The translations under genes and the position numbers were made by a program. A stretch of 64,000 bases of DNA from Escherichia coli. GTDB lineage: Bacteria > Pseudomonadota > Gammaproteobacteria > Enterobacterales > Enterobacteriaceae. Positions 7,854-57,022 of this stretch are shown here, in pieces. Position 1 is the stretch's first letter; each line of letters starts with the position of its first letter. The notes beneath the pieces were generated by a model. That model was not told where the DNA came from. It worked only from the letters and a program-made list of their open reading frames with translations, and did not search any database. The stretch lies in NCBI RefSeq assembly GCF_003790525.1, contig NZ_CP033636.1, one strand, 5' to 3'.

Positions 7854-9158
7854 TTACAGCTGATTAAGACATTCAGGAGCCCAGTGAATCGGGAATCCAT
7901 CCTGCCCTGTTAACTGGAGAACATCGTTCCAGTCGATACCCTTTTTCCCATCAGGAATATCTTGTGCTGGTTCGAAGACTTCAATTGTCAGCTTTGATGC
8001 GGGATATCGTTTAGCCAAAAACTCAACCATGCGGCTTTGAAGTCGCTGAGCAGCTTCAATACCGGCACGAGTGCCTTGTGAGTTAGCAATATCCTTATCC
8101 GCCCAGATATAAAAGTTTATAGATTTTACATCCGGCGGAGGCAGTAAAAAATCAGGAACAGTAACGTTTTCAAGGCACCATGCGGAGCTGGCTGCCCAGC
8201 ATGGTGTTGAAGTCGCTTCTACAACAGAAAGCGCGTTCTCGATCCCTTCAGCCACTCCCAGTGTCCAGGTCGAACTACCTGAATCATAGTGAGGGTCAAA
8301 CAACTGAATTGAGCCACCTGTCATATCGGCAGGAGGCTTCATCATCAGCTTTGGATTTTCTACAGGTGCCTTATCACCATTTTTGTCTACGTATGTTCTA
8401 TGAATAGTCAGAGGCCGACCTCGGGTGTCACGATAGATCGCAATCATTCCCGGATAGATAATCGATTTCTGCTTATCTTTATCCCAATAGTAGATCCGGT
8501 TATTAAAGCCTAAATCCTTTGGTAAGTGACTCAGTAAGCGGGAGATCCCACGATTACGGAGGTACAAAGCAACAGGAGTATTAGGCTTGATTTCACCGGT
8601 ATAGTGATACATCACATCAAGTTTTCGCATTCGCTTTGCCACTTCCTCTCGGTCAAGAGTTTCTGTGGCACGAACTGCTGATTTATAGCGTCGTTCATTT
8701 TCAATGTCGGCGTCAGTTAACGGAGCATGCAGATCCATCCCGAAAAAATCTGAGAGAATCTTTTTGCAAGTCTGCGTTTTACTTAATTCATAATATTTCG
8801 CCAGAACATCAATTCCGTCGCAAAACTCATTTACCGGAAAGTCATTATGGATCGCACATCCGGTATAAAGGTCTTTTTGTCGGAAACGAAACTTCGATTT
8901 CCCTGCGCCAGTAAACGGGCAAGGAACCTGGCTCGGGGCTTTTGCACAAGCGTCTTTGAAAGCAGGTATTCTTTCGAATATATACTTCCAGCCAGACACT
9001 TCAGCAATTCGAGCATGAACGAGTTTAATAAAGTGTTCAGATACTTCCTGTGGATTACGACGAAGAGCCGGGGATGCATAAGTCATGATGATCTCTCTTA
9101 TCTGGCATTGTGAGTTTCTCAATGCCTTCTGCGGTGCAGAAGACAGGGAGAAACCCAC
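7854..9158 (-). CDS. DNA primase (zinc-ribbon CHC2-like motif plus Toprim domain)
   Basis: ORF track 434 aa; CPFTGAGKSKFRF...C...H motif typical of primase zinc-binding domains (P4 alpha / plasmid primase type) and Toprim-like GVAEGIENALSV...DKD segment. Confidence 0.65.
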   Translation of the reverse strand: MGFSLSSAPQKALRNSQCQIREIIMTYASPALRRNPQEVSEHFIKLVHARIAEVSGWKYIFERIPAFKDACAKAPSQVPCPFTGAGKSKFRFRQKDLYTGCAIHNDFPVNEFCDGIDVLAKYYELSKTQTCKKILSDFFGMDLHAPLTDADIENERRYKSAVRATETLDREEVAKRMRKLDVMYHYTGEIKPNTPVALYLRNRGISRLLSHLPKDLGFNNRIYYWDKDKQKSIIYPGMIAIYRDTRGRPLTIHRTYVDKNGDKAPVENPKLMMKPPADMTGGSIQLFDPHYDSGSSTWTLGVAEGIENALSVVEATSTPCWAASSAWCLENVTVPDFLLPPPDVKSINFYIWADKDIANSQGTRAGIEAAQRLQSRMVEFLAKRYPASKLTIEVFEPAQDIPDGKKGIDWNDVLQLTGQDGFPIHWAPECLNQL

Positions 9159-14194: not shown

Positions 14195-15172
14195 TTATTT
14201 GAGATTCATTTGGCAAATAGTTGCCATCAGTTTCCTGATTTGAGGCACATTATAACCAAGATGATTTCCCACTATTTCAAAAGCTTCAGACATGATCCAT
14301 TCAAAATGATTTTCGAATATTGGATTGATTTCTAACTTGCCAAAAGCGTTTCGTTTAGTTAACAGATCACATGAAACAAGCTCGTCAAACAACTCTAATG
14401 TGGATTTAAAAGCTTTTATGTAAACATCCATAATTTCCCTGTCAGTCCATTTAACAGCCAGTTTTTTTTCTGACATTAAATAATCCTGATCAAAGAAGAT
14501 GTCCCAGCCCATATCGTCATTGCAATCATGCAAAATGATTTCATCATCATTCCTGCATTCAGCTAATTTCGTGTTTTCACTAATCGAACGATGCGAATGA
14601 TAATAGAGCCATGATTTTAATTCCGCTCTAAATTCACATGCATCAAGTCCATGACATAAACAAGTGTATTCAAATGATTTTGACATATACCACCGTGTTT
14701 CAGCTTCTAAAAGTGGATTCACTGTGATATTACCATTGTCATCTTTGAAGAATAACTTTCTCCTCAACACTAGTTCTTTAATGATTTCCAAAGACTCTTC
14801 CATAGCGGATAGAAAAACAACATACACATCCTCAGGGGTCCATTCTATTACCAGACCACCCAAATCTGGGTTATATTCTTCAACCGTATATAGATAATCT
14901 GTTTCTGCTGCAAAATTAATTGTATGCAAAATCTGATTTTTAAGTAATTTGGATTTTTCATAAAGGTGATTTTCACGCCTTTCAGAATCATAATTTATCT
15001 CAGAAATGTTACTTTCTTCTGATTTAAAGTTTAATCCGGACGTGTAAGCATCATTTAAATGCTCTTTGGGTGAATCAACTATTTGCGTTATTTCATCTTC
15101 ATCTATATCGAGTATAGAAAAAAAACTAAGTTGATTACTACTTATTGCAGTAGCCCTAAATTTTTGTTTCAT
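14195..15172 (-). CDS. hypothetical protein (325 aa)
   Basis: ORF track; no motif recognised. Confidence 0.5.
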   Translation of the reverse strand: MKQKFRATAISSNQLSFFSILDIDEDEITQIVDSPKEHLNDAYTSGLNFKSEESNISEINYDSERRENHLYEKSKLLKNQILHTINFAAETDYLYTVEEYNPDLGGLVIEWTPEDVYVVFLSAMEESLEIIKELVLRRKLFFKDDNGNITVNPLLEAETRWYMSKSFEYTCLCHGLDACEFRAELKSWLYYHSHRSISENTKLAECRNDDEIILHDCNDDMGWDIFFDQDYLMSEKKLAVKWTDREIMDVYIKAFKSTLELFDELVSCDLLTKRNAFGKLEINPIFENHFEWIMSEAFEIVGNHLGYNVPQIRKLMATICQMNLK

Positions 15173-38550: not shown

Positions 38551-39800
38551 GCGTTAACTCCTTGCTTAGCTGAAAAACTTTTTATTTCATTTATAAATTG
38601 TTGATATACCTGTAATACAGATTCTTCTGCGACATCAAGTTGCTTTGCGGAACAAAGTTCCTCTGATTTTTTGATATCAAGCACTGTACGCCCTTTGGAA
38701 GCAGCTGCCTTAAATGCTTCAGAATTTTTTATGTTAGCGGACATCAAAAGGTCCTGAACAGTTCTGATTAATTTATCCAAAACTATTCTTTCATATGGAC
38801 TTTTGTCATCAACATTGACAGCAAGAACTTTGAACCATTTTAAATTATCGCCCTTACTTGGTGATTGTTTAAACCTTTCACTTATTGTAAGCATGAAGTC
38901 TGTAGTAGAGGCGTAATCATATTCACGTGGTGACACTGCGACAAGAATCCCATCGGCCGCTTCGTCAGCAGCCCAGATCAAAGGTGAATCTTCAGGTGGA
39001 GTGTCTATAATAATCAAATCATAGTTCTGCTTCAGTACCGGTAAGATAACTTCCTTGAAACGTAGTAACAAAGACGTTCGTTCTTCTCTAGAACATTGCC
39101 AGTATTTATCTTTAAAACGAGCATCTGTCGGAAATGCCGTTATCACGTCCAAGTTTGGCAGATGCGTTGAAAAAGGCATATTAGTGATGATTTCTTCTTC
39201 AGAGAATCCTGAATCTAAATATTTTTTATACTCAGAATTTTCTTCATAAATTCCAAGGATTGCATCAATTGCTGTAAGGAAGACATCATCTTCTGAGACA
39301 CTTTGAATCATGCTGCTTCCAATCGAACCTTGTGGGTCCCATTCGATCATTAATACACGTGCATTCAGTTGTAGATCTAAAGCAGCTGCTACTGCTAAAG
39401 CTACAGATGTAGTGCTTTTCCCTGTACCGCCTTTATGATTCTGAGTAACAATAGCTCTGCTAAAGTAATGATCGCGGTACTTGGGATAACCCAGGGCATC
39501 CATTATTTTTTGAACATCCCAGCGGGTGTAAAGATGATTTTTGTTTTGATAAATAGGTGCACCAACAACTTCTTTTTCTTCTAAGTCCGAAAGTATTTTA
39601 TTGAACGTTACTCGTGACTTCCCAAAAAAATCAGAGAGATTTTTTTTATTTAAACAGTGGTTGTAGATCAGTCTATCAACACCATCAACACTATCATCAG
39701 AAACAGATACTCTTGATGAAGCCATCAGAGATTCCTTAAGAGAAATCTGCTCGCTTTTCATGCGCTGACCAACGAGGGCGATCTTTTCAAGTAAATTCAT
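38547..39800 (-). CDS. parA: ParA/SopA-family partition ATPase (type Ia, long N-terminal extension)
   Basis: ORF track 417 aa; deviant Walker A KGGTGKSTT, ~110-aa N-terminal extension typical of SopA/P1 ParA-type proteins. Confidence 0.85.
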   Translation of the reverse strand: MNLLEKIALVGQRMKSEQISLKESLMASSRVSVSDDSVDGVDRLIYNHCLNKKNLSDFFGKSRVTFNKILSDLEEKEVVGAPIYQNKNHLYTRWDVQKIMDALGYPKYRDHYFSRAIVTQNHKGGTGKSTTSVALAVAAALDLQLNARVLMIEWDPQGSIGSSMIQSVSEDDVFLTAIDAILGIYEENSEYKKYLDSGFSEEEIITNMPFSTHLPNLDVITAFPTDARFKDKYWQCSREERTSLLLRFKEVILPVLKQNYDLIIIDTPPEDSPLIWAADEAADGILVAVSPREYDYASTTDFMLTISERFKQSPSKGDNLKWFKVLAVNVDDKSPYERIVLDKLIRTVQDLLMSANIKNSEAFKAAASKGRTVLDIKKSEELCSAKQLDVAEESVLQVYQQFINEIKSFSAKQGVNA

Positions 39801-39830
39801 GGTTATGACCTTTTTGCACTGAAAACCGAC

Positions 39831-39868
39831 TTTTACGCATATATGTAAACTTTACGCATAATGCGTCC
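39831..39868. promoter_or_regulatory. candidate parA operator (TTTACGCATA direct repeats plus ACGCATAATGCGT palindrome)
   Basis: Read from sequence 30-70 nt upstream of parA start; type Ia ParA proteins autoregulate through operators at this position. Confidence 0.3.
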
Positions 39869-40199
39869 ATTTCATTGTTATACGTACAATTCTATCCTTT
39901 GTTTCAATCCTAAGCTAATGTTTGTTTACTTTTTTATGATTTTTTGTGAGCTTAACTTGCAGATGAGAGCTCAGACTCTCTAGTCCATACCTAATGCTCA
40001 TTCTTTTTAAACCACGATTCTTGTCGACTTCTCTACGCTTTGACGTTATGAGCTCCATTAATGAATCTTCACGCCTACCCTATTTCTTGCTTAGACCCTA
40101 AAATCTATCTCACCGGTGTGCTGATTTACGTTTCCTAACTGTGAATCGTTGTCGTCAGTCCAGTCTAAAGATATGAGGTGTTAATCTCTTGAGTAGGCC

Positions 40200-43100
40200 C
40201 ACTACGAATTATGGGAGCAGAGTTAGCAACCTAGCCCAGAACTGAAACCCAACTTCAGGAGGCAACCCCAGTGTGGCGATTAAGGGGGTTAAATCTGCCA
40301 GCGGCTGACAGTGTCCTAGCTGCTGCTCAGTCACACCACGCCCTGATTAAATCTCCTGCCCGGTATTGTAAGGACCGAAAAAAGCCCGTGCATTTGTGTC
40401 GGCAGACCGGCATGAAGGAATATGACGTTAATCTGTATCAGCAGGCACTTTTCGCATGATGGGAGCAAGTGATAGCAACCCCGCCCAGAACGGAAGGCCA
40501 GCATCAGGACAAAACCCAAGTTTGGCGATTAAGGGGGTTAAATTTGCAAGCGGATGACAGTGCCCCAGCTGCTGCTCAGTCACACCACGCCCTGAGTAAA
40601 TCTCTCGCCAGGTCTTGTTATGACCGAAAATAGCCCAAGCACTGGTGTCGGCAGACCGGCATACAGGAATATGACGTTAATCTGTATCAGCAGATACATT
40701 TCGCATTATGGGAGCAAGAGATAGCAACCCAGCCCAGAACTGAAGGCCAGCATGAGGACAGAACACCAGTTTGGCGATTAAGGGAGTTAAATATGCAAGC
40801 TGCTGATAGTGCCCCAGCTCCTGCTCAGTAACACCACGCCCTGATAAAATCTCCTGCCCGGTAATGTAATGACCGAAAAAAGGCCGTGCACTGGTGTCGG
40901 CAGACCGGCACGCAGGAAAATGACGTTAATCTGTATTAACAGACACATTTCGCATTAGGGGAGCAAGTGATAGCCACCCAGCCCAGAACTGAAGGCCAGC
41001 ATCAGGACAGTACCCCAGTTTGGCGATTAAGGGGGTTAAATCCGCCAGTGGCTGTAAGTGCCCGAGCGGTGTATAAGAAATATTTCCCGAAGGACAATCT
41101 TTCGCTCGTACGATGAATAAAGTGTTCAACCCGGGAGCGGGGATCACTTAACCTGCTTAGCCTAAATCTTACGTCATTCTCTAAACGGAGTTTAAGCTTA
41201 ATGGTCCTTAGAAAGTTAAAAGGACTACCCATAATGACGTCTTGAGATGGCGAATAAAGGGTTTTAATCTGCCAGCGGCTGACAGTGCCCCAGCTTCTGC
41301 TCAGTCACACCACGCCTGATTAAATCTCCCGCCAGGTCTTATTATGACCGAAAATAGTCCCCGTGCACTAGAGTCGTAAGACCGGCATACAGGAATGAAG
41401 CTTAAATCTTTATCAGGTTGCAAGGTTCGCATCATGGGAGCAAGGGCCTTGAACTGTAGGTTAACATCAGAAAATCCCAGATTGGCGATTAAGGGGGTTA
41501 AATCTGACAGCGACTGAAAGTGCCTTCAGATGCTGCTCAGGTATATTACAACCTGAAAAAATCAAGCGTCTGTTCATGCGAATATCGAAAAAAGCTATGC
41601 ACCAGTTTCGGCAGACCGGCATGGAGTAATGAGACGTTAATCTGTATCAGCTGGCGCATTTCGTATCATGGGAGCAAGTGTTAGCAACCCTGCCCAGGAC
41701 GGAAGGACACTATCAGGACTGATCCCAGTTTGGAGATTAAGGGGGTTAAATCTGCCAGTGGCTGACAGAGCCTTCTGATGCTGCTCAGACATACTATGCA
41801 ACGATAAAATCACCCGTCCGTCCTTGTGATTATCGGAAAAAGCCATGCACCGGAGTCGGCAGATCGGTATGCAGTAATGTGACTTTAATCTGTATCAGCA
41901 GGCGCAATGGGAGCAAGTGTTAGCAACCGAGCCCAGGACGGAAGGACACTATCAGGACTGAACCCCAGTGTGGCGATTAAGGGGGTTAAATCTGCAAGCG
42001 GATAACAGTGCCCCAGCTGCTGCTCAGTCACACCACGCCCTGATTAAATCTCTCGCCAGGTCTTGTTAGGACCGAAAATAGCCCGAGCACTGGTGTCGGC
42101 AGACCGGCATACAGGAATACGACGTTAATTTGTATCAGCAGGTACATTTCGCATTATGGGAGCAAGTGATAGCAACCCAGCTCAGAACTGAAGGCCTGCA
42201 TGAGGACAGAACACCAGTTTGGCGATTAAGGGGGTTAAATCTGACAGCGGCTGACAGTGCCTTCAGATGCTGCTCAGGCATACTACTCTCCCTGATATAA
42301 TCTCCCATATGTTCTTGAGATCGTCGGAAATCGCCCATGCACCGGTGTCGGCAGACCGGTATGCAGTAATGTGATTTTAATCTGTATCAGCAGGCACATT
42401 TCGTATCATGGGAGTAAGTGTTAGCAAACCGAACCCCGCCCAGCACGGAAGGTCAATATCAGACCAGAATCCCAGTTTGGCGATTAAGGGGGTTAAATCT
42501 GCAAGCTGCTGACAGTGCCCCAGCTTCTGCTCAGTCACACCACGCCCTGATAAAATCTCCTGCCCGGTAATGTGATGACCGAAAAAAGCCCGTGCACTGG
42601 TGTTGGCAGACCGGCACGCAGGAATATGACGTTAATCTGTATCAGCAGTTACATTTCGCATTATGGGAGGAAGTGATAGCCACCCAGCCCAGAACTGAAG
42701 GCCAGCATCAGGACAGTACCCCAGTTTGGCGATTAAGGGGGTTAAATCCGGCAGCGGCAGTAAGTGCCCGTGCTGTGTTAAAGGAATATTTCCCTAAGGA
42801 CAATCTTCCGATCGGCCTTTTGTATAAAGTGGTCACCCCGGGAGCGGGGATCACTTTACCTGCTTAGCCTAAATCTTACGTCAATCACTATCCGGAATTT
42901 TAGCTTAATGGTCCTGAGCAAGTTAAAAGGGGTACCCCTAATGACGTCCCCAGATGGCGATAAAGGAGTTAATTCCGCCTTCGGCTTACAGTGCCGCAGC
43001 TGCTGCTAAGGAACACCACGCCCTGATTAAATCTCCCGCCTGGCCTTGTGATGACCAAAAATTGTCCGTGCACTGGCGTCGTAAGACCGGCATACAGGAA

Positions 43101-43210
43101 TGAGGCGTTAATCTTTATTAGGTGGAAGGATTCGCATCATGGGAGCAAGGGCCCTAGAACTGTAGGCTAACATTAGAAAATCACAGATTGGCGATAAAGG
43201 GGGTTAAATA
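40200..43210. repeat. tandem array of about 13 direct repeats of ~245-260 bp with higher-order organisation (two blocks of A-type units each ending in a diverged B and C unit)
   Basis: Unit starts marked by TGGCGATTAAGGGGGTTAAATCTGC at 40264, 40523, 40772, 41021, then B-type 41021-41260 and C-type 41262-41480, A-type units resume 41483-42720, B-type again 42722-42950 and C-type 42953-43205; shared blocks GTGTCGGCAGACCGGCAT and ATGACGTTAATCTGTATCAGCAGG in A units. Confidence 0.85.
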
Positions 43211-43575
43211 AGTTAAAAGTCTTCGGTGAGCAAATTGGATAAATTTTCATAAACCAAAGCGTTAATATTAAACTTTTAGAAGAATGATTAAAGGATATTA
43301 AGTTTTGTATGCAATATGACACCAGTGATCTGTTTTCACTAATAATGCCGCGCTCCTTTGATTACCTTTGGTAAACAAAAATGTAATTTACGTGAATTTC
43401 ATCTTATAAAGTCAGTATTGATGTTATAAATTTTGTTTACTTAATGCGTACACAACCTAAATGCGATTTGTAATTATGTCACTGTTTTTAAGCCATATTA
43501 ATTATAAAACCAAAATTTGCAGCACAGTGATGAACTCATTAAGTCATAACCTCATTTGTTTACTTAAGGCATACA

Positions 43576-43608
43576 ATAAAAAACCAGATTCTTATGAGAC
43601 ATCTGGTT
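43576..43608 (-). terminator. intrinsic terminator after traC
   Basis: AACCAGAT...ATCTGGTT hairpin with A6 on plus strand (U-run after hairpin on minus transcript) 30 nt downstream of the traC stop (43637). Confidence 0.55.
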
Positions 43609-43636
43609 TAATTGTTTTTGCTTGAAGATATTTACT

Positions 43637-46318
43637 CTACGCGGCCAAACCCGCTGCTACTTCTTGAGCATAGAGAATTTCTATTGCCTCGCCATAGCTA
43701 CAATTCTCGCGGCTTTGAATTTCCCATAATTTACTCCTGTCAGCACTATCCGTAGTAAAACAAAGCTCCATTTTCCGGTCTACGTATAACCGACAGATCT
43801 CTTGGAAGTTTTCGAACCTGACTAACATCTCTGAAAACACCTTTTTGACTGTACGAATATTTTTCATTCGTTCATATTCTGCATCTGAAGTAGAAAAATA
43901 TTTATTAGCCTTCATTGCTTCAATGCTTTCTTTTTCTTGTTTCATGATTATCTTCCAAGGCGAGTTAGCAGTCAGGGCCCGGCCAACAGAAGAAGTAAAA
44001 TAATCTTCAAACGACTGTGTGATACAGATGCCAGCGCAGTTTGTTTTCCTGAACCTACGCCATGCCGCTTCGAGGAAGGAAGAGAAGAATTGGTTTGATT
44101 GATTTCCGGCACCTGATGAATTATCAGGACGAATGTACTCCCAAGCTTCATCTAGGATGAACAAGCGACGACGCCCATCTTTTTTGATGAACATTGCATG
44201 CTGAGCAGCCTGAATGATAGACATTAAAACAACTGTCTGAAGGTGGGGGGTGCCTTTTAGCTCCTCCAGTTCCAAAACAATAAATCTGCTGTCGAAGTTG
44301 ATTGGAGGCAACGTATCGGTAAACCGGTGCCCATAAATTCCACCTTCGCACCATGCTCCGAGTTGCTCCCCAATATCCTTTATACGTTTGTCTTCATGCT
44401 TCTTGCAACGCAGAGCAAAGCCGGTTATTGAACCGGTCCGACCTGATTTTCTGGATTCCTGGTACTCTTCTGCAATAAGCTGAAGCATCACTGATTGTTG
44501 ATAATCATCGATAAGGCCTTTCTCTGAAGCCATAATTTTTAGCTGATTCAGAACCATTATGGTCTGAGCAACTTTGTCTTTTTCTGCATCGTTTGAAGTT
44601 GATTCACCGGTAAATTCAGGTGCTTCGTTAAATACATCGTCGTTAACAGTGATGTCAGTTAGGAAGGCAAAGGGATTTAGGGTGAAGTCAGGGGTTTTAC
44701 CGAAATCAATAAATTGACTGTTTGTATATTGTTCCGCAATCCCCTGGTAAGAACGCCCCACGTCCACTACAAAAACTTGAGCACCATCAGGATCATCATC
44801 TGGGTATTCGTTTTCTAAAAAATGCTTAAATGTTGAGCGATAATGAACGAGGTTATTAGATCGCGGTCCAGCTCCAAGATAGTTATTGATTAGATATGCT
44901 GTCCAGAATGACTTGCCTGCACCTGACGTTGCACCAATAACCATGTTATAGCTTGCAGAAGTCTTGAAAATATCAAGTCCCATGAGTTGACCTTCACGAG
45001 AAACTAAACTCAGTACTGGTCTATCTGTATTACCTTTCCAGGGCCCAAAGATCGGCGTCATATGAGCCGCTCCGGTGTTGCTCACTACTTCGGATCGGTC
45101 AAGGTCGAAAATTGTCTTTGGGTCATTGCACATTGGCAGACATGACATAAATGACGGGAAAACGATAAAGGAATCATCTGCTACTTTGACCCGGCTTTCG
45201 AGGTAAAAGGATTTGAGATCGTTAGCTGCTGTCTGCACAGAATTGGCATTACTACCCATAACAGTGAAAGTAAGATACCCTCTTAAAAGCTTTGCGCCAT
45301 CCTCAAGCTCGCGAGTTACGGCCATGTAGTCATTATCCATATCCCGCAGGCGAGGGCAGAATGTGACAACTGAAGGTATACTTGCCTGTTTATTAGTGAT
45401 TGCTTTGTAGCGGACGTTTTCTTTTGACAACTTGAGCGGATCGGCAAACTGAACAGTCTGAGTGATCATAAATGGGCTGAAAATTGTCTTACGTCCATGC
45501 ATCCAGTTAACTACTAACTCATACATACAACCGAAATTGACGTATTCAGGAAACTTTACAACGGAAAGTTGTTTGAAGTAACGATGCTCAGATTCGTCGT
45601 CACTTTGTGTGACTGATGAGAAATGATTTTCTGTGACTGTATACTTACGGCCGGGAACGTTAACTTGTTCATTAAGCCTTTTCATAGTGTTAACGTCTAT
45701 AAAACCTTCAGCCCACCGAGAGTTCTTTCCGGGGTTTACGACCTTATCTATACAATAGAGCCAGTTTTCTGCATCGACCTTAAACGGATGCAGTCCAATC
45801 GTAATTAACTTACTTACAAGTTCAGAGTAAAGTGAATCGATACGCGAATGTTCCAGCTCGGTAGGAAGGGCAGACTGTAAAGGAATCGATAGCGAGATCC
45901 ATACCTGAAAATCCCTCAACATAAGGTTATCATGATCAGGTTTTAAAGGCTTATGCATACTTCTGTCGTAGTAGTCCAACTGATAACCATTAAGCAGATC
46001 TGCTTTAAGCTTATCGTTCCCAGTCATACGCCCACCTCGCACAGCTGACCAAGCACTAAGCTGTAAAGTCAAGTCTGGCAATGCAGTCAGAGATATTTGA
46101 CAGACAGTATCTGTAGGAAAATCCATTTTGAACATTTCAGCAAGAACATCTTGCTGATTATCAAAAACTCCAGGTGATGGATTACAGATAAACATAAACC
46201 CTAATCTGTTGCCATCAATCAAAAAATAGTGAGTCCCTGCTAATTGATCGTAAACAGGGATAAACCCACCTAATTGATGGCGATTTAAACCGCTATTGTA
46301 ATTATTGATAGCTTCCAT
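43637..46318 (-). CDS. traC: TraC (VirB4-like) conjugative transfer ATPase
   Basis: ORF track 893 aa; Walker A GATSGAGKS, Walker B-like FILDEAW; size and position after traV typical of F-type TraC. Confidence 0.8.
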   Translation of the reverse strand: MEAINNYNSGLNRHQLGGFIPVYDQLAGTHYFLIDGNRLGFMFICNPSPGVFDNQQDVLAEMFKMDFPTDTVCQISLTALPDLTLQLSAWSAVRGGRMTGNDKLKADLLNGYQLDYYDRSMHKPLKPDHDNLMLRDFQVWISLSIPLQSALPTELEHSRIDSLYSELVSKLITIGLHPFKVDAENWLYCIDKVVNPGKNSRWAEGFIDVNTMKRLNEQVNVPGRKYTVTENHFSSVTQSDDESEHRYFKQLSVVKFPEYVNFGCMYELVVNWMHGRKTIFSPFMITQTVQFADPLKLSKENVRYKAITNKQASIPSVVTFCPRLRDMDNDYMAVTRELEDGAKLLRGYLTFTVMGSNANSVQTAANDLKSFYLESRVKVADDSFIVFPSFMSCLPMCNDPKTIFDLDRSEVVSNTGAAHMTPIFGPWKGNTDRPVLSLVSREGQLMGLDIFKTSASYNMVIGATSGAGKSFWTAYLINNYLGAGPRSNNLVHYRSTFKHFLENEYPDDDPDGAQVFVVDVGRSYQGIAEQYTNSQFIDFGKTPDFTLNPFAFLTDITVNDDVFNEAPEFTGESTSNDAEKDKVAQTIMVLNQLKIMASEKGLIDDYQQSVMLQLIAEEYQESRKSGRTGSITGFALRCKKHEDKRIKDIGEQLGAWCEGGIYGHRFTDTLPPINFDSRFIVLELEELKGTPHLQTVVLMSIIQAAQHAMFIKKDGRRRLFILDEAWEYIRPDNSSGAGNQSNQFFSSFLEAAWRRFRKTNCAGICITQSFEDYFTSSVGRALTANSPWKIIMKQEKESIEAMKANKYFSTSDAEYERMKNIRTVKKVFSEMLVRFENFQEICRLYVDRKMELCFTTDSADRSKLWEIQSRENCSYGEAIEILYAQEVAAGLAA

Positions 46319-53275: not shown

Positions 53276-53740
53276 GTAAACGCGAATGAATAATACTTTT
53301 TTATTCCGATCCTTCCGTTCGCATAAACCCCCTTTTTTTAACGTTTAGCGATTGGTGAATTTTTAAGCAAAGGGGCCTAAAGCATAATCTTTGAAAAGTA
53401 CCAGTGAACGCTTAGTAAAAGTTTGAAAGAGGGGAGGGGGTAAGATTACGTTAAGCTCAATCCTGAAGCTGATGAGACTCCTCAAGCATAAAAGTCACTT
53501 TTGATGGTTTGAAAAGCTCTAACTAGATATCGGGCAGGTAACTAAGCTTCATATCTAATCTTTTTTGTTCCCTTAATATCTATCTCTTGATTCTGAGAAG
53601 GCCGCATATCACTGTGCTCCCTGGTTCGGCAACTATCAGTTGGAGAAACTACATACAATCCTCGGCCGGTGCGTCATTCATCTAAATGCCTTTTACACCT
53701 CTGGGCGTGAGTGGGACTTTGTCTTGTCCATATGAACATC

Positions 53741-54258
53741 ATTCATTCGAATGCTTTTGGCCAATGCTATTTAAGCAAATGCTTTCTGGCTGAGTCCTTT
53801 TGCGAATGAGTCTTTGATATAACTGCATGAATTTTGGGTTGTTTGGTGTACTAACAAAACAAAGGCATTTCTTTGAATGCCATTGGAGTTGTGATGCTTC
53901 TGATATTTTTTTGATCTCATATCAAACACATAGTCCTTCTGATGCCCAATGTCATAGATGTCTTGGACCATTCTCGCTCTTAACAAAGCTGTACTGTGTG
54001 TCATTCGACCTAATGCCATTCACCAAAATGCCTTTTTATACCACTGCATAGCTATGCTCGGGATACAGTGGCAAACAAAAGCATTTCAATGAATGATTTT
54101 TTGGGATACCGACATCAAAAGCATTTGTATGAATGTAAGAGGCGTAATCCACAAAAGGCATTCACGTGAATAGAGTGCGCACGAAACCATCTTGCTCCAC
54201 GGCATTTAATGAATGGGCTAGCATGTACGCTTGAGCCAGAAAGGCATACAGATGAATA
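53741..54258. repeat. iteron-like direct repeats (about 10 copies of a ~19-bp AAAGGCATT-N3-5-TGAATG-like motif), candidate oriV
   Basis: Copies read at about 53741, 53776, 53861, 54011, 54028, 54078, 54118, 54155, 54199, 54240; several are internally palindromic (GGCATTC...GAATGCC, ATTCACGTGAAT). Confidence 0.5.
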
Positions 54259-54396
54259 GTCAGGAGTTCGTTTGAAAAGTTACTTTTTTGCACATTAAGC
54301 CGAGATGTAAGACCAGTAGTAAAAGAAGCACTAAGCATAGCACTGATAAATAACTTATTTTTCAGCATGTTATAACCAGTGCATACCTGGTAGCTT

Positions 54397-55272
54397 TCAA
54401 CCTTGTTTGGCGAGGGCCAGCTTAGGGCTTCTTTTGAAGATCTGAAATTGTATGTCGCGACCTTTCTTAACTTCTTGATAATCGAGATATCCGATAGATT
54501 CAAGTTCCCGCATTGCTTTACGAATTATCTGGTTTTGCGTACGAATAGGGGTTGTAAGAAGCAACCTTTCCCTCAACCGTTTCATATTAACGAACAACGT
54601 ACCAGCTGGCATTGCTTCAAAATAAATATAGAGAGATTGCGCAGCTTCTTTTTTAGCCAAAATGTATAGAACCTGAAGGCTTAACAATGTCTTATGGTCG
54701 TAACGATACAGTTCCCACATAGAAGGATCCCCAACCAACTCAACAGTATCGCTTTTTGGATCAATCATAGCCTTCTGCACCAGATGCGTTACTGTGAACC
54801 GACCACTCCGAGAGTCTGAGAAGGCAAGCACTACCGATGCAAGGTTCATTAATGACTCTTTAAAGCGCGCACGAGTTCGTTTGTTGATGTTTGTTGAACT
54901 GATACCACACATCTTCGCAAACTCGTTAAAAGTCAGGGTAATCTTCTCGGAAGTAAAACCATATTTACTGAAAGCCATGATGATCCCGAGCCAGCACTTA
55001 AAGTCGGTAGACATAGATAGTTTGACACCAGTTATCTTGATGTCGTCATAACCCTCCGATCTTGCAATTTCCATACACGAAAGCTCATCAGAGGCATCAA
55101 CTTCAAAGTTTCGGTCGCGGTTTTCTTTTGTGCCGACAGGGGTAAATACACTCAATCTCAACAGGGCCACGGGCTGAACCGACTTGGACGAGTTAGGCGT
55201 CAGTTGATAAGTCTTACCTGATTCATTACTGGTTACGTCAAAAGGATGGATTAACTCGTTGTTTTTAATCAT
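54397..55272 (-). CDS. putative replication initiator (Rep) protein
   Basis: ORF track 291 aa; flanked on both sides by iteron-like repeats; C-terminal region resembles winged-helix of iteron-binding Rep proteins. Confidence 0.5.
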   Translation of the reverse strand: MIKNNELIHPFDVTSNESGKTYQLTPNSSKSVQPVALLRLSVFTPVGTKENRDRNFEVDASDELSCMEIARSEGYDDIKITGVKLSMSTDFKCWLGIIMAFSKYGFTSEKITLTFNEFAKMCGISSTNINKRTRARFKESLMNLASVVLAFSDSRSGRFTVTHLVQKAMIDPKSDTVELVGDPSMWELYRYDHKTLLSLQVLYILAKKEAAQSLYIYFEAMPAGTLFVNMKRLRERLLLTTPIRTQNQIIRKAMRELESIGYLDYQEVKKGRDIQFQIFKRSPKLALAKQG

Positions 55273-55330
55273 TAACTTAACTCGTCGGTGATAAGATTTT
55301 CATTTGGCAAACTGTTTATAACATATTCTT

Positions 55331-55430
55331 GCAAATGCTTTTTACGCATTAACCTAAATGCCATAAGCATTCCAGTAAATGCCTTCCTTATTCATTCAAA
55401 TGCTTTTCGCATGCATCCGAATGCCGGATC
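55331..55430. repeat. second set of iteron-like repeats (AAATGCYTT...CATTC, 4-5 copies) upstream of the Rep gene
   Basis: Read from sequence: CAAATGCTTTTTACGCATT, TAAATGCCATAAGCATTC, TAAATGCCTTCCTTATTCATTC, CAAATGCTTTTCGCATGC, GAATGCC. Confidence 0.45.
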
Positions 55431-55748: not shown

Positions 55749-56804
55749 ATGAACAACAGCAAACATACAGTCATTGAAGTGGATACTAATCTAGTTGAAA
55801 TTGAAAAGGGATTTAATCCCCGAGAGGCGGTAATCGGAGATTTGTGTTACGAACAAGAACCTGTCAAGTCGATGATTGTGTCAATCAAACAAGCCTTTAA
55901 GGAAGGAAGGCAGGTTGATATGATCAAGGTCGTAAAAAGAAAAGGTAAATATTTAGTTCGTCAAGGTCATACTCGTTTTCATGGCTTAAAATTAGCAATT
56001 TCTGAAGGTGCTAATATTCCAAAATTATCTGTTATCCTAATCGATTATAAAAACGAAATTGAAGAATACCTTGAGAACCTCGATGGTAACAGAAGCAATG
56101 GGCTAAATCCGGTTGGGCAAGCTCATGCATTAGCTCATGCTGTTAGTCTCGGGTATTCGGTTGAAGAACTAGCAATGCGATATCAACGATCAACTACCGC
56201 AATTCGTAATATGCTAAAAATCCTTGATATGCCATTAGAGCTTCAACGTTTGATTAGCCTAAATCTAATCAAAAAAACGCTCGCCATTGAAATAATGTTA
56301 AAATATTCCAACGATCACAAAATGGTTTTAAAACATATAGAAGGTTTCTTACCTGGCGTTAAGAATATTGAGACTACAACGAGCAAAATTGTAGGCATAC
56401 CTGAACACAATGCAGCTGGAGCAGGACCAGACACCTTAAATAAAGGCGGACCAGAAAAGAAAAATTCGGCAGTCACTCGTAAGACTTTGGGTATTAAGCG
56501 CCTCTCGCATAAGAAAACAGAACGGCTAAAATCTGAATTTCTTGAGCTTGTGGAAAGTACACATACGGAATCTATAACGAATACTCAAACAGAACTAAAA
56601 TTTGGTAGAGATAGTGCACACTTGTTCAAAAATGTTAATAGTAATAATGTAATATTTTCCAATGATGGTGTTCAAATAATCTTGAATGATGAAAAGCTAA
56701 ATATTTTATTGTCTTTACTTAACGACGAAAATACAGCAATCATTGTTTCTAAACCAAAATTAGAAGAGCTTCTGGAAATTCGAGATCTCCTTAAGGAATA
56801 TTAA
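55749..56804 (+). CDS. ParB/Srx-fold N-terminal domain protein (ParB-like nuclease domain), paralog 1
   Basis: ORF track 351 aa; GFNPRE and VRQGHTRF motifs of the ParB N-terminal domain. Confidence 0.6.
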   Translation: MNNSKHTVIEVDTNLVEIEKGFNPREAVIGDLCYEQEPVKSMIVSIKQAFKEGRQVDMIKVVKRKGKYLVRQGHTRFHGLKLAISEGANIPKLSVILIDYKNEIEEYLENLDGNRSNGLNPVGQAHALAHAVSLGYSVEELAMRYQRSTTAIRNMLKILDMPLELQRLISLNLIKKTLAIEIMLKYSNDHKMVLKHIEGFLPGVKNIETTTSKIVGIPEHNAAGAGPDTLNKGGPEKKNSAVTRKTLGIKRLSHKKTERLKSEFLELVESTHTESITNTQTELKFGRDSAHLFKNVNSNNVIFSNDGVQIILNDEKLNILLSLLNDENTAIIVSKPKLEELLEIRDLLKEY

Positions 56805-56821
56805 AAACGAGGATTAGTTGA

Positions 56822-57022
56822 GTGATTAAACCTATAAAGCTGACTCTTATCGATAATTATAGTGATTTGCTTCTAACTCATGAAGTCCTTAAACGCAACA
56901 TGGAAGAGTTAGAACACGGTAAACGTTTTGATCAATTTCCTGAAGGGCATGACCACTATGAAAAAACTGTGAAAGAAGCTGTAGCAATCGTAGAGGCACG
57001 TTTGGAGGTGTTTCGAAAATGA
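56822..57022 (+). CDS. hypothetical small protein (66 aa)
   Basis: ORF track (GTG start); GAGGA upstream; stop overlaps start of next gene (ATGA). Confidence 0.4.
   Translation: MIKPIKLTLIDNYSDLLLTHEVLKRNMEELEHGKRFDQFPEGHDHYEKTVKEAVAIVEARLEVFRK

What the first reader, a model, noticed from the sequence alone, without database searches (positions are those of the whole stretch)
43431..43578. Paired 22-bp direct repeats between the repeat array and the traC terminator
TTTGTTTACTTAATGCGTACA (43431-43455) recurs as TTTGTTTACTTAAGGCATACA (43553-43578) in an otherwise unique AT-rich spacer. A related TGTTTGTTTACTT motif lies upstream of parA near 39917. These could be binding sites for a regulator shared between partition and transfer genes.
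Basis: seen in the sequence. Interest (0 to 1): 0.3.

Follow-up and report, generated by a model that had tools for sequence, protein, structure and literature searches.

The report
Paired 21-bp repeats beside plasmid centromere
Two nearly identical 21-base sequences sit in a short non-coding gap between a conjugation gene and the partition-site array of an IncHI2 resistance plasmid; they are real and non-random, probably local protein-binding sites, but no evidence shows a regulator shared by partition and transfer genes.

Summary
The window is the Tra2 region of an R478-type IncHI2 plasmid. The repeats are real. TTTGTTTACTTAATGCGTACA lies at 43432-43452 and TTTGTTTACTTAAGGCATACA at 43555-43575. 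They match at 19 of 21 positions, are 123 bp apart, and sit in a 28-30% GC spacer between the trhC terminator and a 3-kb array of P1-type parS-like boxes. Chance is unlikely: 0.01 matches are expected per window, and the repeat scores above all 100 spacer shuffles. A third, palindromic relative (43357-43379) shares the half-site TTTGWTTACY. The element occurs only in IncHI2 (1,123 plasmids). The full 21-mer has no other copy in the 275-kb R478 replicon and is not upstream of any tra operon. The parA-upstream match is only an 11-mer (p about 0.05) and is not conserved in IncHI1. I found no support for iterons, an sRNA, a promoter, an ORF, a PhoP box, a canonical Ter site or a transposon end. 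Support for function is weak. None of 9 nearby lineage SNPs hits the three sites (p about 0.04). IncHI1 plasmids carry a different, phylogenetically conserved cluster of GGTT-N9-AACC palindromes in the same spacer. My best guess is local protein-recognition sites at the centromere boundary. A neutral duplication is nearly as likely. Interest is low.

The parts
43432..43452 (+). Repeat copy 1: TTTGTTTACTTAATGCGTACA
   Evidence: (family D15). Identical in both IncHI2 lineages.
43555..43575 (+). Repeat copy 2: TTTGTTTACTTAAGGCATACA. Its right end abuts the U-tract of the trhC terminator.
   Evidence: Invariant in 1,122 of about 1,131 plasmid hits.
43357..43379 (.). Third, palindromic relative: TTTGATTACC-TTT-GGTAAACAAA (10-3-10, 9 of 10 complementary). 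Its right arm forms a perfect 10-bp inverted repeat with the left end of copy 1, 50 nt away.
   Evidence: I3; I6; 5 mismatches to the 21-mer. Not individually significant against AT-rich shuffles.
43576..43612 (-). Intrinsic terminator of trhC (end of the trhA-trhC operon): AAACCAGAU...AUCUGGUUUUUUAUU
   Evidence: -14.5 kcal/mol, z = -3.3.
43211..43575 (.). IncHI2-specific AT-rich non-coding spacer that holds the three sites
   Evidence: 1,123 plasmids, all IncHI2; GC 0.28-0.30; unrelated to the array unit and to the parA promoter.
39919..39931 (+). Partial motif TGTTTGTTTACTT about 120 nt upstream of parA. It shares only the left half, TTTGTTTACTT.
   Evidence: (D16). Conserved in R478 but not in IncHI1.
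40190..43210 (.). Context: array of units of about 249 bp, each carrying the parS-like box TGGCGATTAAGGGGGTTAAAT (probable Par1 centromere)
   Evidence: The same box occurs in the IncHI1 and pCFA1707-type arrays.
38547..39800 (-). Context: parA, a large ParA with an N-terminal extension of about 110 aa. parB lies at 37546-38550.
43637..46318 (-). Context: trhC (TraC-family conjugation ATPase, 893 aa)
34592..34609 (-). Possible related site B, TGTTTACTTCATGAATAC, about 150-170 nt upstream of parM (4 mismatches to the degenerate 21-mer)
   Evidence: Not conserved in R478, which has TGGTTAATACATGAATAC.
34771..34788 (-). Possible related site A, TGTTTACATCGATGATAC, 14 nt from the start codon of the first Z-operon gene
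   Evidence: conserved in R478. It matches only the pattern I defined after the fact.

Best explanation
The two 21-mers, probably together with the palindromic relative 52 bp to their left, are recognition sites for a sequence-specific DNA-binding protein. They act only locally, in the IncHI2-specific spacer that separates the trhC terminator from the outer edge of the Par1 centromere array. Each site has a strictly conserved left block (TTTGTTTAC, extended to TTTGTTTACTTAA in the two 21-mers) and a looser right block (GCRTACA). In the palindrome, two left blocks face each other. This pattern fits a protein that reads TTTGWTTACY as a half-site and binds as a dimer or in tandem. The most likely role is architectural, or as a boundary between the transfer operon and the ParB-parS nucleoprotein complex. 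It is not transcriptional control of a regulon. What is shown: the repeats are real, non-random, confined to IncHI2 and to this one locus, non-coding, and not a known element. What is inferred: that a protein binds them, which protein it is, and the boundary role.
For: The pair is non-random. The edges are sharp, with no flank similarity and no 123-bp tandem structure, so a simple tandem duplication does not explain it. The half-site TTTGWTTACY occurs 4 times in 220 bp, against 6 in the whole window (1.1 expected) and 8 in R478 (3.0 expected). The two IncHI2 lineages differ at 15 of 441 spacer positions, and none falls in the three sites. In 43357-43575 there are 9 SNPs, all in the 154 bp outside the 65 bp of sites; my hypergeometric arithmetic gives p about 0.04. 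The weaker look-alike motifs I noticed (TTAAGCCATA, TTAAGTCATA) are hit by SNPs, but the 21-mers are not. At the homologous position, IncHI1 plasmids carry 4 orthologous GGTT-N9-AACC palindromes. Their arms are 91% identical between two IncHI1 lineages, against 53% for the rest of the spacer. Three of the five such sites in all of R27 lie there. This spacer is therefore a site-rich platform in the sister group. A related plasmid type carrying the same par module elsewhere (pCFA1707-1) has no such spacer, so the sites are not part of the minimal par module.
Against: There are only two good copies. The third site and the inverted repeat are within the range of AT-rich shuffles. No candidate binding protein is identified, and no known motif library was available to test. 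SNP avoidance is only p about 0.04, or 0.13 for the two 21-mers alone. IncHI2 diversity is too low for a real footprint: there are two haplotype groups and no diverged relatives in PLSDB, GTDB genomes or metagenomes. The IncHI1 motif is different, and an attempt to unify the two as GNTT-N9-AANC is at background frequency. No experiment or paper on this spacer was found.
Confidence: 0.4

Rival explanations
1. Neutral relic: a short non-tandem duplication, templated insertion or plain coincidence in a fast-evolving AT-rich intergenic buffer, with no function.
For: There are only two copies, at one locus, in one plasmid lineage. No promoter, gene, RNA structure or known motif is associated. The related plasmid pCFA1707-1 carries the same par module without any such spacer. 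The spacer is the fastest-diverging segment here: it differs by 3.4% between lineages whose TrhC is identical. My rough estimate of a 19/21 match within 200 bp somewhere in the window is 0.005-0.15, depending on AT content.
Against: The score exceeds all 100 shuffles of the spacer. No mechanism readily copies 21 bp to a point 123 bp away without the flanks. The copies differ by 2 of 21 positions, yet neither changed in either lineage while the 102 bp between them took 6 substitutions. The IncHI1 spacer is demonstrably under site-specific constraint.
Confidence: 0.33
2. Secondary operator-like sites for the partition proteins. Candidates are the large HTH-bearing ParA (or ParB A-box contacts), linking the far edge of the centromere array to the parA promoter.
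For: The right half of copy 1, TAATGCGTACA, fits the motif repeated in the parA operator region (TTATGCGTAAA, ATATGCGTAAA, TTATACGTACA). GTTTACATATATGCGTA in the operator aligns with GTTTACTTA-ATGCGTA in copy 1. The left half recurs 120 nt upstream of parA. Two separate matches in one 160-bp region score 11 and 10.5, and only 2 other loci in the window reach 11. ParA matches P1/P7 ParA and V. cholerae ParA2, and ParB matches the P1 ParB DNA-binding domain. From established knowledge, P1-type ParA is an operator-binding autorepressor.
Against: Copy 2 is degenerate exactly in the ATGCGTA core (AGGCATA). ATGCGTA is at background frequency in the window (6 against 5.7 expected). Operator sites are palindromic pairs, whereas the 21-mers are not. 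ParA is 89% identical and its operator is conserved in IncHI1, yet the IncHI1 spacers have no such sites. Whole-spacer against parA-upstream alignment is not significant (13.5 against 14.2 for shuffles).
Confidence: 0.1
3. Ter-like polar replication-fork barriers for the plasmid's own divergent Tus-like protein. The two direct sites plus one inverted site would form a small fork trap about 11 kb from the RepHIA origin.
For: The sites are 21 bp, non-palindromic, and arranged as two direct copies plus one inverted copy, with centres 74 bp apart. From memory, this recalls the inverted Ter pair of R6K. IncHI2 encodes a Tus-family protein (Pfam Ter, E = 2e-19) so diverged that it finds no PDB Tus by phmmer. 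It is only 58% identical to the R27 homologue, far below the roughly 90% of backbone proteins, so lineage-specific recognition is conceivable.
Against: There is no GTTGTAAC core. R478 has a better canonical Ter-like site elsewhere (GTTGTAACTAATAT at 188,990). The sequence upstream of the tus-like gene does not resemble the 21-mer. The third site is itself a palindrome, which is unlike a polar Ter.
Confidence: 0.04
4. Sites for a host response regulator of the OmpR/PhoB type that binds 11-bp-periodic tandem hexamers, such as a PhoP box (T/G)GTTTA-N5-(T/G)GTTTA.
For: Both copies read TGTTTA-CTTAA-KGCRTA, which is 10 of 12 with the correct 11-bp period. The single match to the search pattern (TTTGTTTACTTAAnnnnTACA) in an unrelated Enterobacterales MAG is an 11 of 12 box (TGTTTA-CTTAA-GTTTTA) about 100 bp upstream of a gene.
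Against: Matches of 10 of 12 occur at background frequency (33 in the window against 30.6 expected). There is no suitably placed -10 element or downstream gene on either strand.
Confidence: 0.04
5. Transcribed element: a small RNA, a small ORF or a promoter pair.
For: One sigma-70-like site lies on the minus strand (43501-43473), and a 54-codon ORF lies on the plus strand (43461-43625).
Against: Promoter-like sites are fewer than expected (1 against 2.8). The -35 and -10 hexamers are both hit by lineage SNPs, and the ORF's ATG is CTG in lineage 2. There is no Rfam match. Folding between the repeats is unremarkable once the terminator is removed (z = -0.49).
Confidence: 0.03

Closest known systems
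[quoted passage not shown]
   Same: Same genomic position (between the trhC terminator and the Par1 parS-like array). AT-rich non-coding spacer. Three to five short sites 55-125 bp apart. The motif is confined to that spacer within the replicon.
   Different: Different sequence and symmetry: 17-bp interrupted palindromes against 21-bp direct repeats. The spacers are not alignable. The IncHI1 sites have a real phylogenetic footprint, while the IncHI2 sites could not be tested that way.
P1-type (type Ia) partition locus: parOP operator, parS with A-boxes, B-boxes and an IHF site
   Same: The neighbouring genes are P1-like (ParB C-terminal domain PF08775 / PDB 1zx4; ParA matches P1 and P7 ParA). 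The array boxes contain TCGCCA, the P1 B-box hexamer as I recall it. Copy 1 carries one operator-like half-site, ATGCGTA.
   Different: The 21-mers lie outside the array units and outside the promoter. They have no B-box, no IHF consensus and no dyad like the operator, and they are absent from other plasmids with the same par module.
Tus-Ter fork barriers of plasmids (R6K, R1/R100)
   Same: Similar length, asymmetry of the site, and a direct-plus-inverted arrangement. A Tus-family gene is on the plasmid.
   Different: The conserved GTTGTAAC core is absent, and there is no evidence of fork arrest.
PhoP box and other tandem winged-helix response-regulator sites
   Same: 11-bp periodic hexamers with a 10 of 12 match.
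   Different: Statistically indistinguishable from background in this AT-rich DNA, and there is no promoter context.

Membership tests
Iterons of the plasmid replication initiator (RepHIA) | Match to the iteron consensus CATTCAnnnAAATGCYTTT found around the rep gene | tested here: not met
   A position weight matrix built from 11 iterons (53675-55408) gives a best spacer score of 9.2 bits, at background level, against 16-27 bits for true iterons.
Type Ia ParA operator (parOP-like) | Dyad-symmetric ACGCAT/ATGCGT repeats like those conserved upstream of parA in IncHI1, IncHI2 and pCFA1707-1 | tested here: inconclusive
   Copy 1 has one perfect half-site (AATGCGTAC), copy 2 has AAGGCATAC, and no dyad partner is present. 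ATGCGTA is at background frequency in the window.
Type Ia ParA operator (parOP-like) | Bound by ParA-ADP | not testable with these tools
   Needs EMSA or footprinting.
parS centromere unit (P1 type) | A-box plus B-box (ATTTAAC...CTTAATCGCCA in these arrays) | tested here: not met
   No TCGCCA in the spacer sites. The spacer shows no significant similarity to the array (26 against 22.7 +/- 2.2 for shuffles, maximum 32).
Tus-Ter replication terminus site | Conserved core GTTGTAAC with G at position 6 | tested here: not met
   No GTTGTAAC lies in or near the spacer. The Ter consensus with up to 3 mismatches is at background frequency.
Tus-Ter replication terminus site | A cognate Tus protein is encoded or available | tested here: met
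   R478 55875-56855 matches Pfam Ter at E = 2e-19. It is highly diverged, far below the equivalog cut-offs, with no PDB hit.
Tus-Ter replication terminus site | Polar arrest of replication forks | not testable with these tools
   Needs 2-D gels or a helicase-blocking assay.
PhoP box | (T/G)GTTTA-N5-(T/G)GTTTA above background and positioned at a promoter | tested here: not met
   Both copies match 10 of 12, but 33 such sites occur in the window against 30.6 expected, and no promoter or gene context exists.
Small RNA / structured RNA | Rfam match or folding energy beyond shuffles | tested here: not met
   No Rfam hit at E up to 1. z = -0.49 for 43425-43578 and z = -1.1 for 43300-43470 on the minus strand. 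The z = -3.3 signal comes from the trhC terminator alone.
Transposon, IS or MITE ends | Terminal inverted repeats with flanking target-site duplication, and copies elsewhere | tested here: not met
   No target-site duplication at candidate ends (read). No further copies in R478, including the Tn7-like element ends. No hits outside IncHI2.
   The whole-R478 scan finds only the two copies. Hits with up to 5 mismatches number 5 against 2.2 expected, and none is at a tra promoter. Only half-site or after-the-fact matches occur at parA and at parM/Z.

The most novel reading that the evidence does not exclude
The sites, and the unrelated but co-located GGTT-N9-AACC sites of IncHI1, form a dedicated boundary element. 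A bound factor would form a roadblock that keeps the multi-kilobase ParB-parS complex (spreading or sliding ParB) from invading the adjacent conjugation operon, or would stall replication and transcription before they enter the centromere. This would be an insulator evolved because IncHI plasmids, unusually, embed their partition locus inside a transfer region.
Probability: 0.1. Interest if true: 0.55.

Novelty: new member of a known kind. Interest (0 to 1): 0.17.

Why it matters
IncHI2 plasmids are major carriers of mcr, ESBL, carbapenemase and heavy-metal resistance genes. Their stability depends on the Par1 locus next to this spacer. If the repeats are boundary or accessory sites of the centromere, they would add a small piece to how a 3-kb parS array coexists with a transfer operon 400 bp away. 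They would also mark a cis element that differs between IncHI1 and IncHI2. If they are a neutral relic, nothing follows.

Tried and rejected
1. RepHIA iterons: the position weight matrix scores only background in the spacer.
2. Spacer as a degenerate array unit: no similarity.
3. Spacer as a decayed copy of the parA promoter region: not significant.
4. sRNA or structured RNA: no Rfam hit, and z-scores are unremarkable once the terminator is excluded.
5. Promoter or ORF: the sites are fewer than expected and are hit by lineage SNPs, and the ORF start is lost in lineage 2.
6. PhoP, CpxR, OmpR, TyrR, IHF, DnaA, XerCD/cer and LexA consensus sequences were compared by eye from memory. Only the PhoP box fitted (10 of 12), and it is at background frequency. 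cer-like arms reached 8 of 11 on one arm only.
7. Canonical Ter: absent.
8. Tn7-like or IS ends, or a MITE: no target-site duplication and no other copies.
9. Unifying IncHI1 and IncHI2 sites as GNTT-N9-AANC: background frequency.
10. Searching for diverged relatives to obtain a footprint. PLSDB in distant mode, GTDB genomes and metagenomes returned only the two known haplotypes. The other six metagenome hits are unrelated tandem satellite-like repeats.
11. Four extra BLAST calls tried to isolate the single PLSDB record with 90-95% spacer identity and failed.
12. Literature: no paper in the held library describes this spacer, and Lawley & Taylor 2003 on R27 Par1/Par2 is not held. The pSTM6-275 paper mentions only 'a potential ter site' and tus, without coordinates.
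13. Looking for an autoregulated gene carrying the IncHI1 motif in whole R27: none found.

Full report
WHAT THE WINDOW IS. The 551 bp around the finding are 100% identical to hundreds of IncHI2 plasmids of Escherichia, Salmonella, Enterobacter and Klebsiella. The annotation of pSTM6-275 and R478 shows that the window is the Tra2 region in reverse orientation.
- trhC, a TraC-family ATPase, lies at 43637-46318 on the minus strand.
- A 3-kb array of units of about 249 bp lies at about 40190-43210.
- parA (38547-39800) and parB (37546-38550) follow on the minus strand.
- ParA is a large ParA that matches P1 and P7 ParA and V. cholerae ParA2. ParB carries the P1-type ParB DNA-binding domain (PF08775; PDB 1zx4).
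- Every array unit carries TGGCGATTAAGGGGGTTAAAT. The same box is repeated in the IncHI1 arrays and in an unrelated plasmid type with the same par genes. The array is therefore very probably the Par1 centromere.

THE OBSERVATION. Both copies exist: 43432-43452 TTTGTTTACTTAATGCGTACA and 43555-43575 TTTGTTTACTTAAGGCATACA. They are 21 nt long, match at 19 of 21 positions, are direct, and lie 123 bp apart.
- The degenerate 21-mer is expected 0.01 times per window and occurs twice.
- In the 370-bp spacer its ungapped score (15) exceeds all 100 composition-preserving shuffles (mean 9.4, maximum 14).
- The spacer has 28-30% GC.
- Copy 2 ends 3 nt from the U-tract of a good intrinsic terminator of trhC (-14.5 kcal/mol, z = -3.3).
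- The parA-upstream relative is real (39919-39931) but shares only TTTGTTTACTT.

EXTRA ANATOMY. A third relative lies at 43357-43379. It is a 10-3-10 palindrome, TTTGATTACC-TTT-GGTAAACAAA. Its right arm is a perfect 10-bp inverted repeat of the start of copy 1.
- The half-site TTTGWTTACY occurs four times in 220 bp. It occurs 6 times in the window (1.1 expected) and 8 times in all of R478 (3.0 expected).
- Taken alone, the palindrome and the inverted repeats are within the range of AT-rich shuffles. I therefore treat the third site as probable, not proven.

DISTRIBUTION.
- The spacer is found only in IncHI2: 1,123 PLSDB records in two haplotype groups (100% and 96.6%), even with sensitive blastn.
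- A pattern scan of 100,044 species genomes found the pair in two species representatives, both lineage 2.
- A paired-pattern scan of metagenomes found one IncHI2 contig, also lineage 2. The other hits are unrelated satellite-like tandem repeats.
- IncHI3 and IncHI5 plasmids have no par module after trhC. There, trhC converges directly on trhZ.
- IncHI1 plasmids have the par module but a different, unalignable spacer.
- A different plasmid type with the same par module has its array directly after a terminator, with no such spacer.

I assembled the whole R478 sequence (274,762 bp) and scanned it.
- No other copy of the 21-mer exists. Hits with up to 5 mismatches number 5 against 2.2 expected: the two copies, the third site and two coding-region hits.
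- Nothing lies upstream of the trhA, htdA or Tra1 operons.
- The parA-upstream 11-mer is a p about 0.05 match (28 of 500 shuffles).
- In IncHI1 it is replaced by unrelated bases, although the adjacent parA operator ACGCATTATGCGTAAAGTTTAC is conserved.
- A second local resemblance exists between GTTTACATATATGCGTA in the parA operator and GTTTACTTA-ATGCGTA in copy 1. This keeps a ParA connection alive. Against it, copy 2 is degenerate exactly there, ATGCGTA is at background frequency, and the spacer as a whole is not related to the parA upstream region.
- The bipartite core TGTTTAC-N7-RTAC occurs four times in the window against 0.06 expected. The other two copies both lie in the 365-bp Z-operon/parM intergenic region. 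I defined that pattern after seeing them. N6 spacing also gives two hits, and one of the two sites is changed at four positions in R478. I record this as unresolved.

WHAT IT IS NOT.
- RepHIA iterons.
- A degenerate array unit.
- An RNA family or stable structure.
- A conserved promoter or ORF. The only promoter-like site and the ORF start are both hit by lineage SNPs.
- A PhoP box above background.
- A canonical Ter site.
- A transposon end.

EVIDENCE FOR CONSTRAINT.
- The two IncHI2 lineages differ at 15 of 441 spacer positions, although TrhC is identical in both.
- In 43357-43575 there are nine differences. All lie in the 154 bp outside the three sites and none in the 65 bp inside. My hypergeometric arithmetic gives p about 0.04, or 0.13 for the two 21-mers alone.
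- The look-alike fragments I had noticed between the copies are hit by SNPs, and the 21-mers are not.
- This is suggestive only. No more diverged relative could be found.

THE IncHI1 PARALLEL.
- In both IncHI1 lineages, GGTT-N9-AACC occurs three times in about 14 kb, always in the trhC-to-array spacer (0.2-0.4 expected).
- The two spacers align at only 53% identity. Four sites fall in the same columns, and their arms are 91% identical while the N9 interior varies.
- Three of the five occurrences in all of R27 are there.
- This is a classical footprint of a dimeric binding protein. It shows that this spacer is a site platform in the sister group.
- The IncHI2 motif is different. Forcing both into one pattern gives background frequency.

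CONCLUSION. The most likely reading (about 0.4) is that the 21-mers, with the palindrome, are local recognition sites for an unidentified DNA-binding protein at the outer boundary of the Par1 centromere, with an architectural or insulating role. A neutral duplication or coincidence is almost as likely (about 0.33). The remaining probability is split between ParA or ParB secondary sites, Ter-like sites for the plasmid's divergent Tus-like protein, a host response-regulator box and a transcribed element. On the Tus-like protein: it matches Pfam Ter at E = 2e-19, has no PDB hit, and is only 58% identical between R478 and R27. The idea of a regulator shared between partition and transfer promoters is not supported. 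The feature is real and apparently undescribed, but small, lineage-specific and of low general interest.

Noticed in passing
L003 8190-8495 (pEC2-4, R27-like) and L015 4392-4702 (pECO-109b); NC_002305.1 27,871-28,121: IncHI1 plasmids carry four orthologous GGTT-N9-AACC (TGGTT...AACCA) palindromes in the spacer between the trhC terminator and their parS-like array. The arms are 91% identical between two lineages, against 53% for the surrounding spacer. Three of the five occurrences in all of R27 lie there. The binding protein is unknown.
   Followed up: partly
window 40190-43210: The array of units of about 249 bp varies in copy number between IncHI2 plasmids. The trhC-to-parA distance is 3,837 bp here and 3,839 in R478 but 3,339 in pSTM6-275 (two units fewer). 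parA starts at 14726, 14975, 15224, 15473 or 15741 in other records that start at the same origin.
   Followed up: partly
window 40274-43209; L003 8560-10930; L014 5950-6310; L080 1960-4080: The box ATTTAACCCCCTTAATCGCCA is conserved across IncHI2, IncHI1 and pCFA1707-type arrays although the units differ (about 249 bp against about 60 bp). IncHI3 has a variant, AAAACAACCCCGTTGTTCGCA, in 66-bp units. The box contains TCGCCA, which I recall as the P1 parS B-box hexamer, and ParB has the P1-type DNA-binding domain. All four plasmid types place a multi-kb array upstream of parA rather than a single parS downstream of parB.
   Followed up: partly
window 39826-39886 (minus strand): The parA promoter region carries repeated ACGCAT/ATGCGT elements, including the palindrome ACGCATTATGCGT. 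These are conserved in IncHI1 and pCFA1707-1 and are the probable ParA operator.
   Followed up: partly
window 34592-34609 and 34771-34788: TGTTTAC-N7-ATAC occurs twice in the divergent Z-operon/parM promoter region, matching the core of the 21-mers. One site lies 14 nt from the start codon of the first Z-operon gene. The other carries a cluster of four substitutions within 7 bp between IncHI2 lineages (TGTTTACTT against TGGTTAATA), an unusually dense change.
   Followed up: partly
L015 4742-4755; R478 (L011) record position 188,990: The pNDM-CIT-like IncHI1 spacer contains ATGTTGTAACT, an 11-nt exact match to the E. coli Ter core, inside a segment absent from R27-like plasmids. R478 has GTTGTAACTAATAT in an intergenic region of Tra1. 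These are possible real Ter sites.
   Followed up: no
R478 55875-56855 (L009 5875-6855); R27 162022-162981: The IncHI 'DNA replication terminus site-binding protein' is a very distant Tus relative (Pfam Ter 70 bits, no PDB match by phmmer). It is only 58% identical between R478 and R27, whereas TrhC and ParA are about 90% identical. It is a fast-evolving DNA-binding protein with an unknown target.
   Followed up: partly
window 53675-55408: At least 11 RepHIA iterons (CATTCAnnnAAATGCYTTT) flank the RepB-family initiator gene on both sides and in both orientations.
   Followed up: partly
L023 9060-9105 (Enterobacterales MAG Faavne_M6_B3): A perfect 14-bp inverted repeat, ACTTAAGTAAACAA-N8-TTGTTTACTTAAGT, lies about 100 bp upstream of a secreted-protein gene. 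One arm continues as TGTTTA-CTTAA-GTTTTA, an 11 of 12 PhoP-box-like tandem. It is unrelated to IncHI2 and is probably an operator.
   Followed up: no
L004-L006 (IncHI3/IncHI5), about 7900-7930: In IncHI3 and IncHI5 plasmids trhC is followed within about 27 bp by the convergent trhZ operon. The whole segment of spacer, array, parA and parB seen in IncHI1 and IncHI2 therefore looks like an insertion between two transfer operons. IncHI3 keeps its homologous par locus elsewhere (L080).
   Followed up: partly
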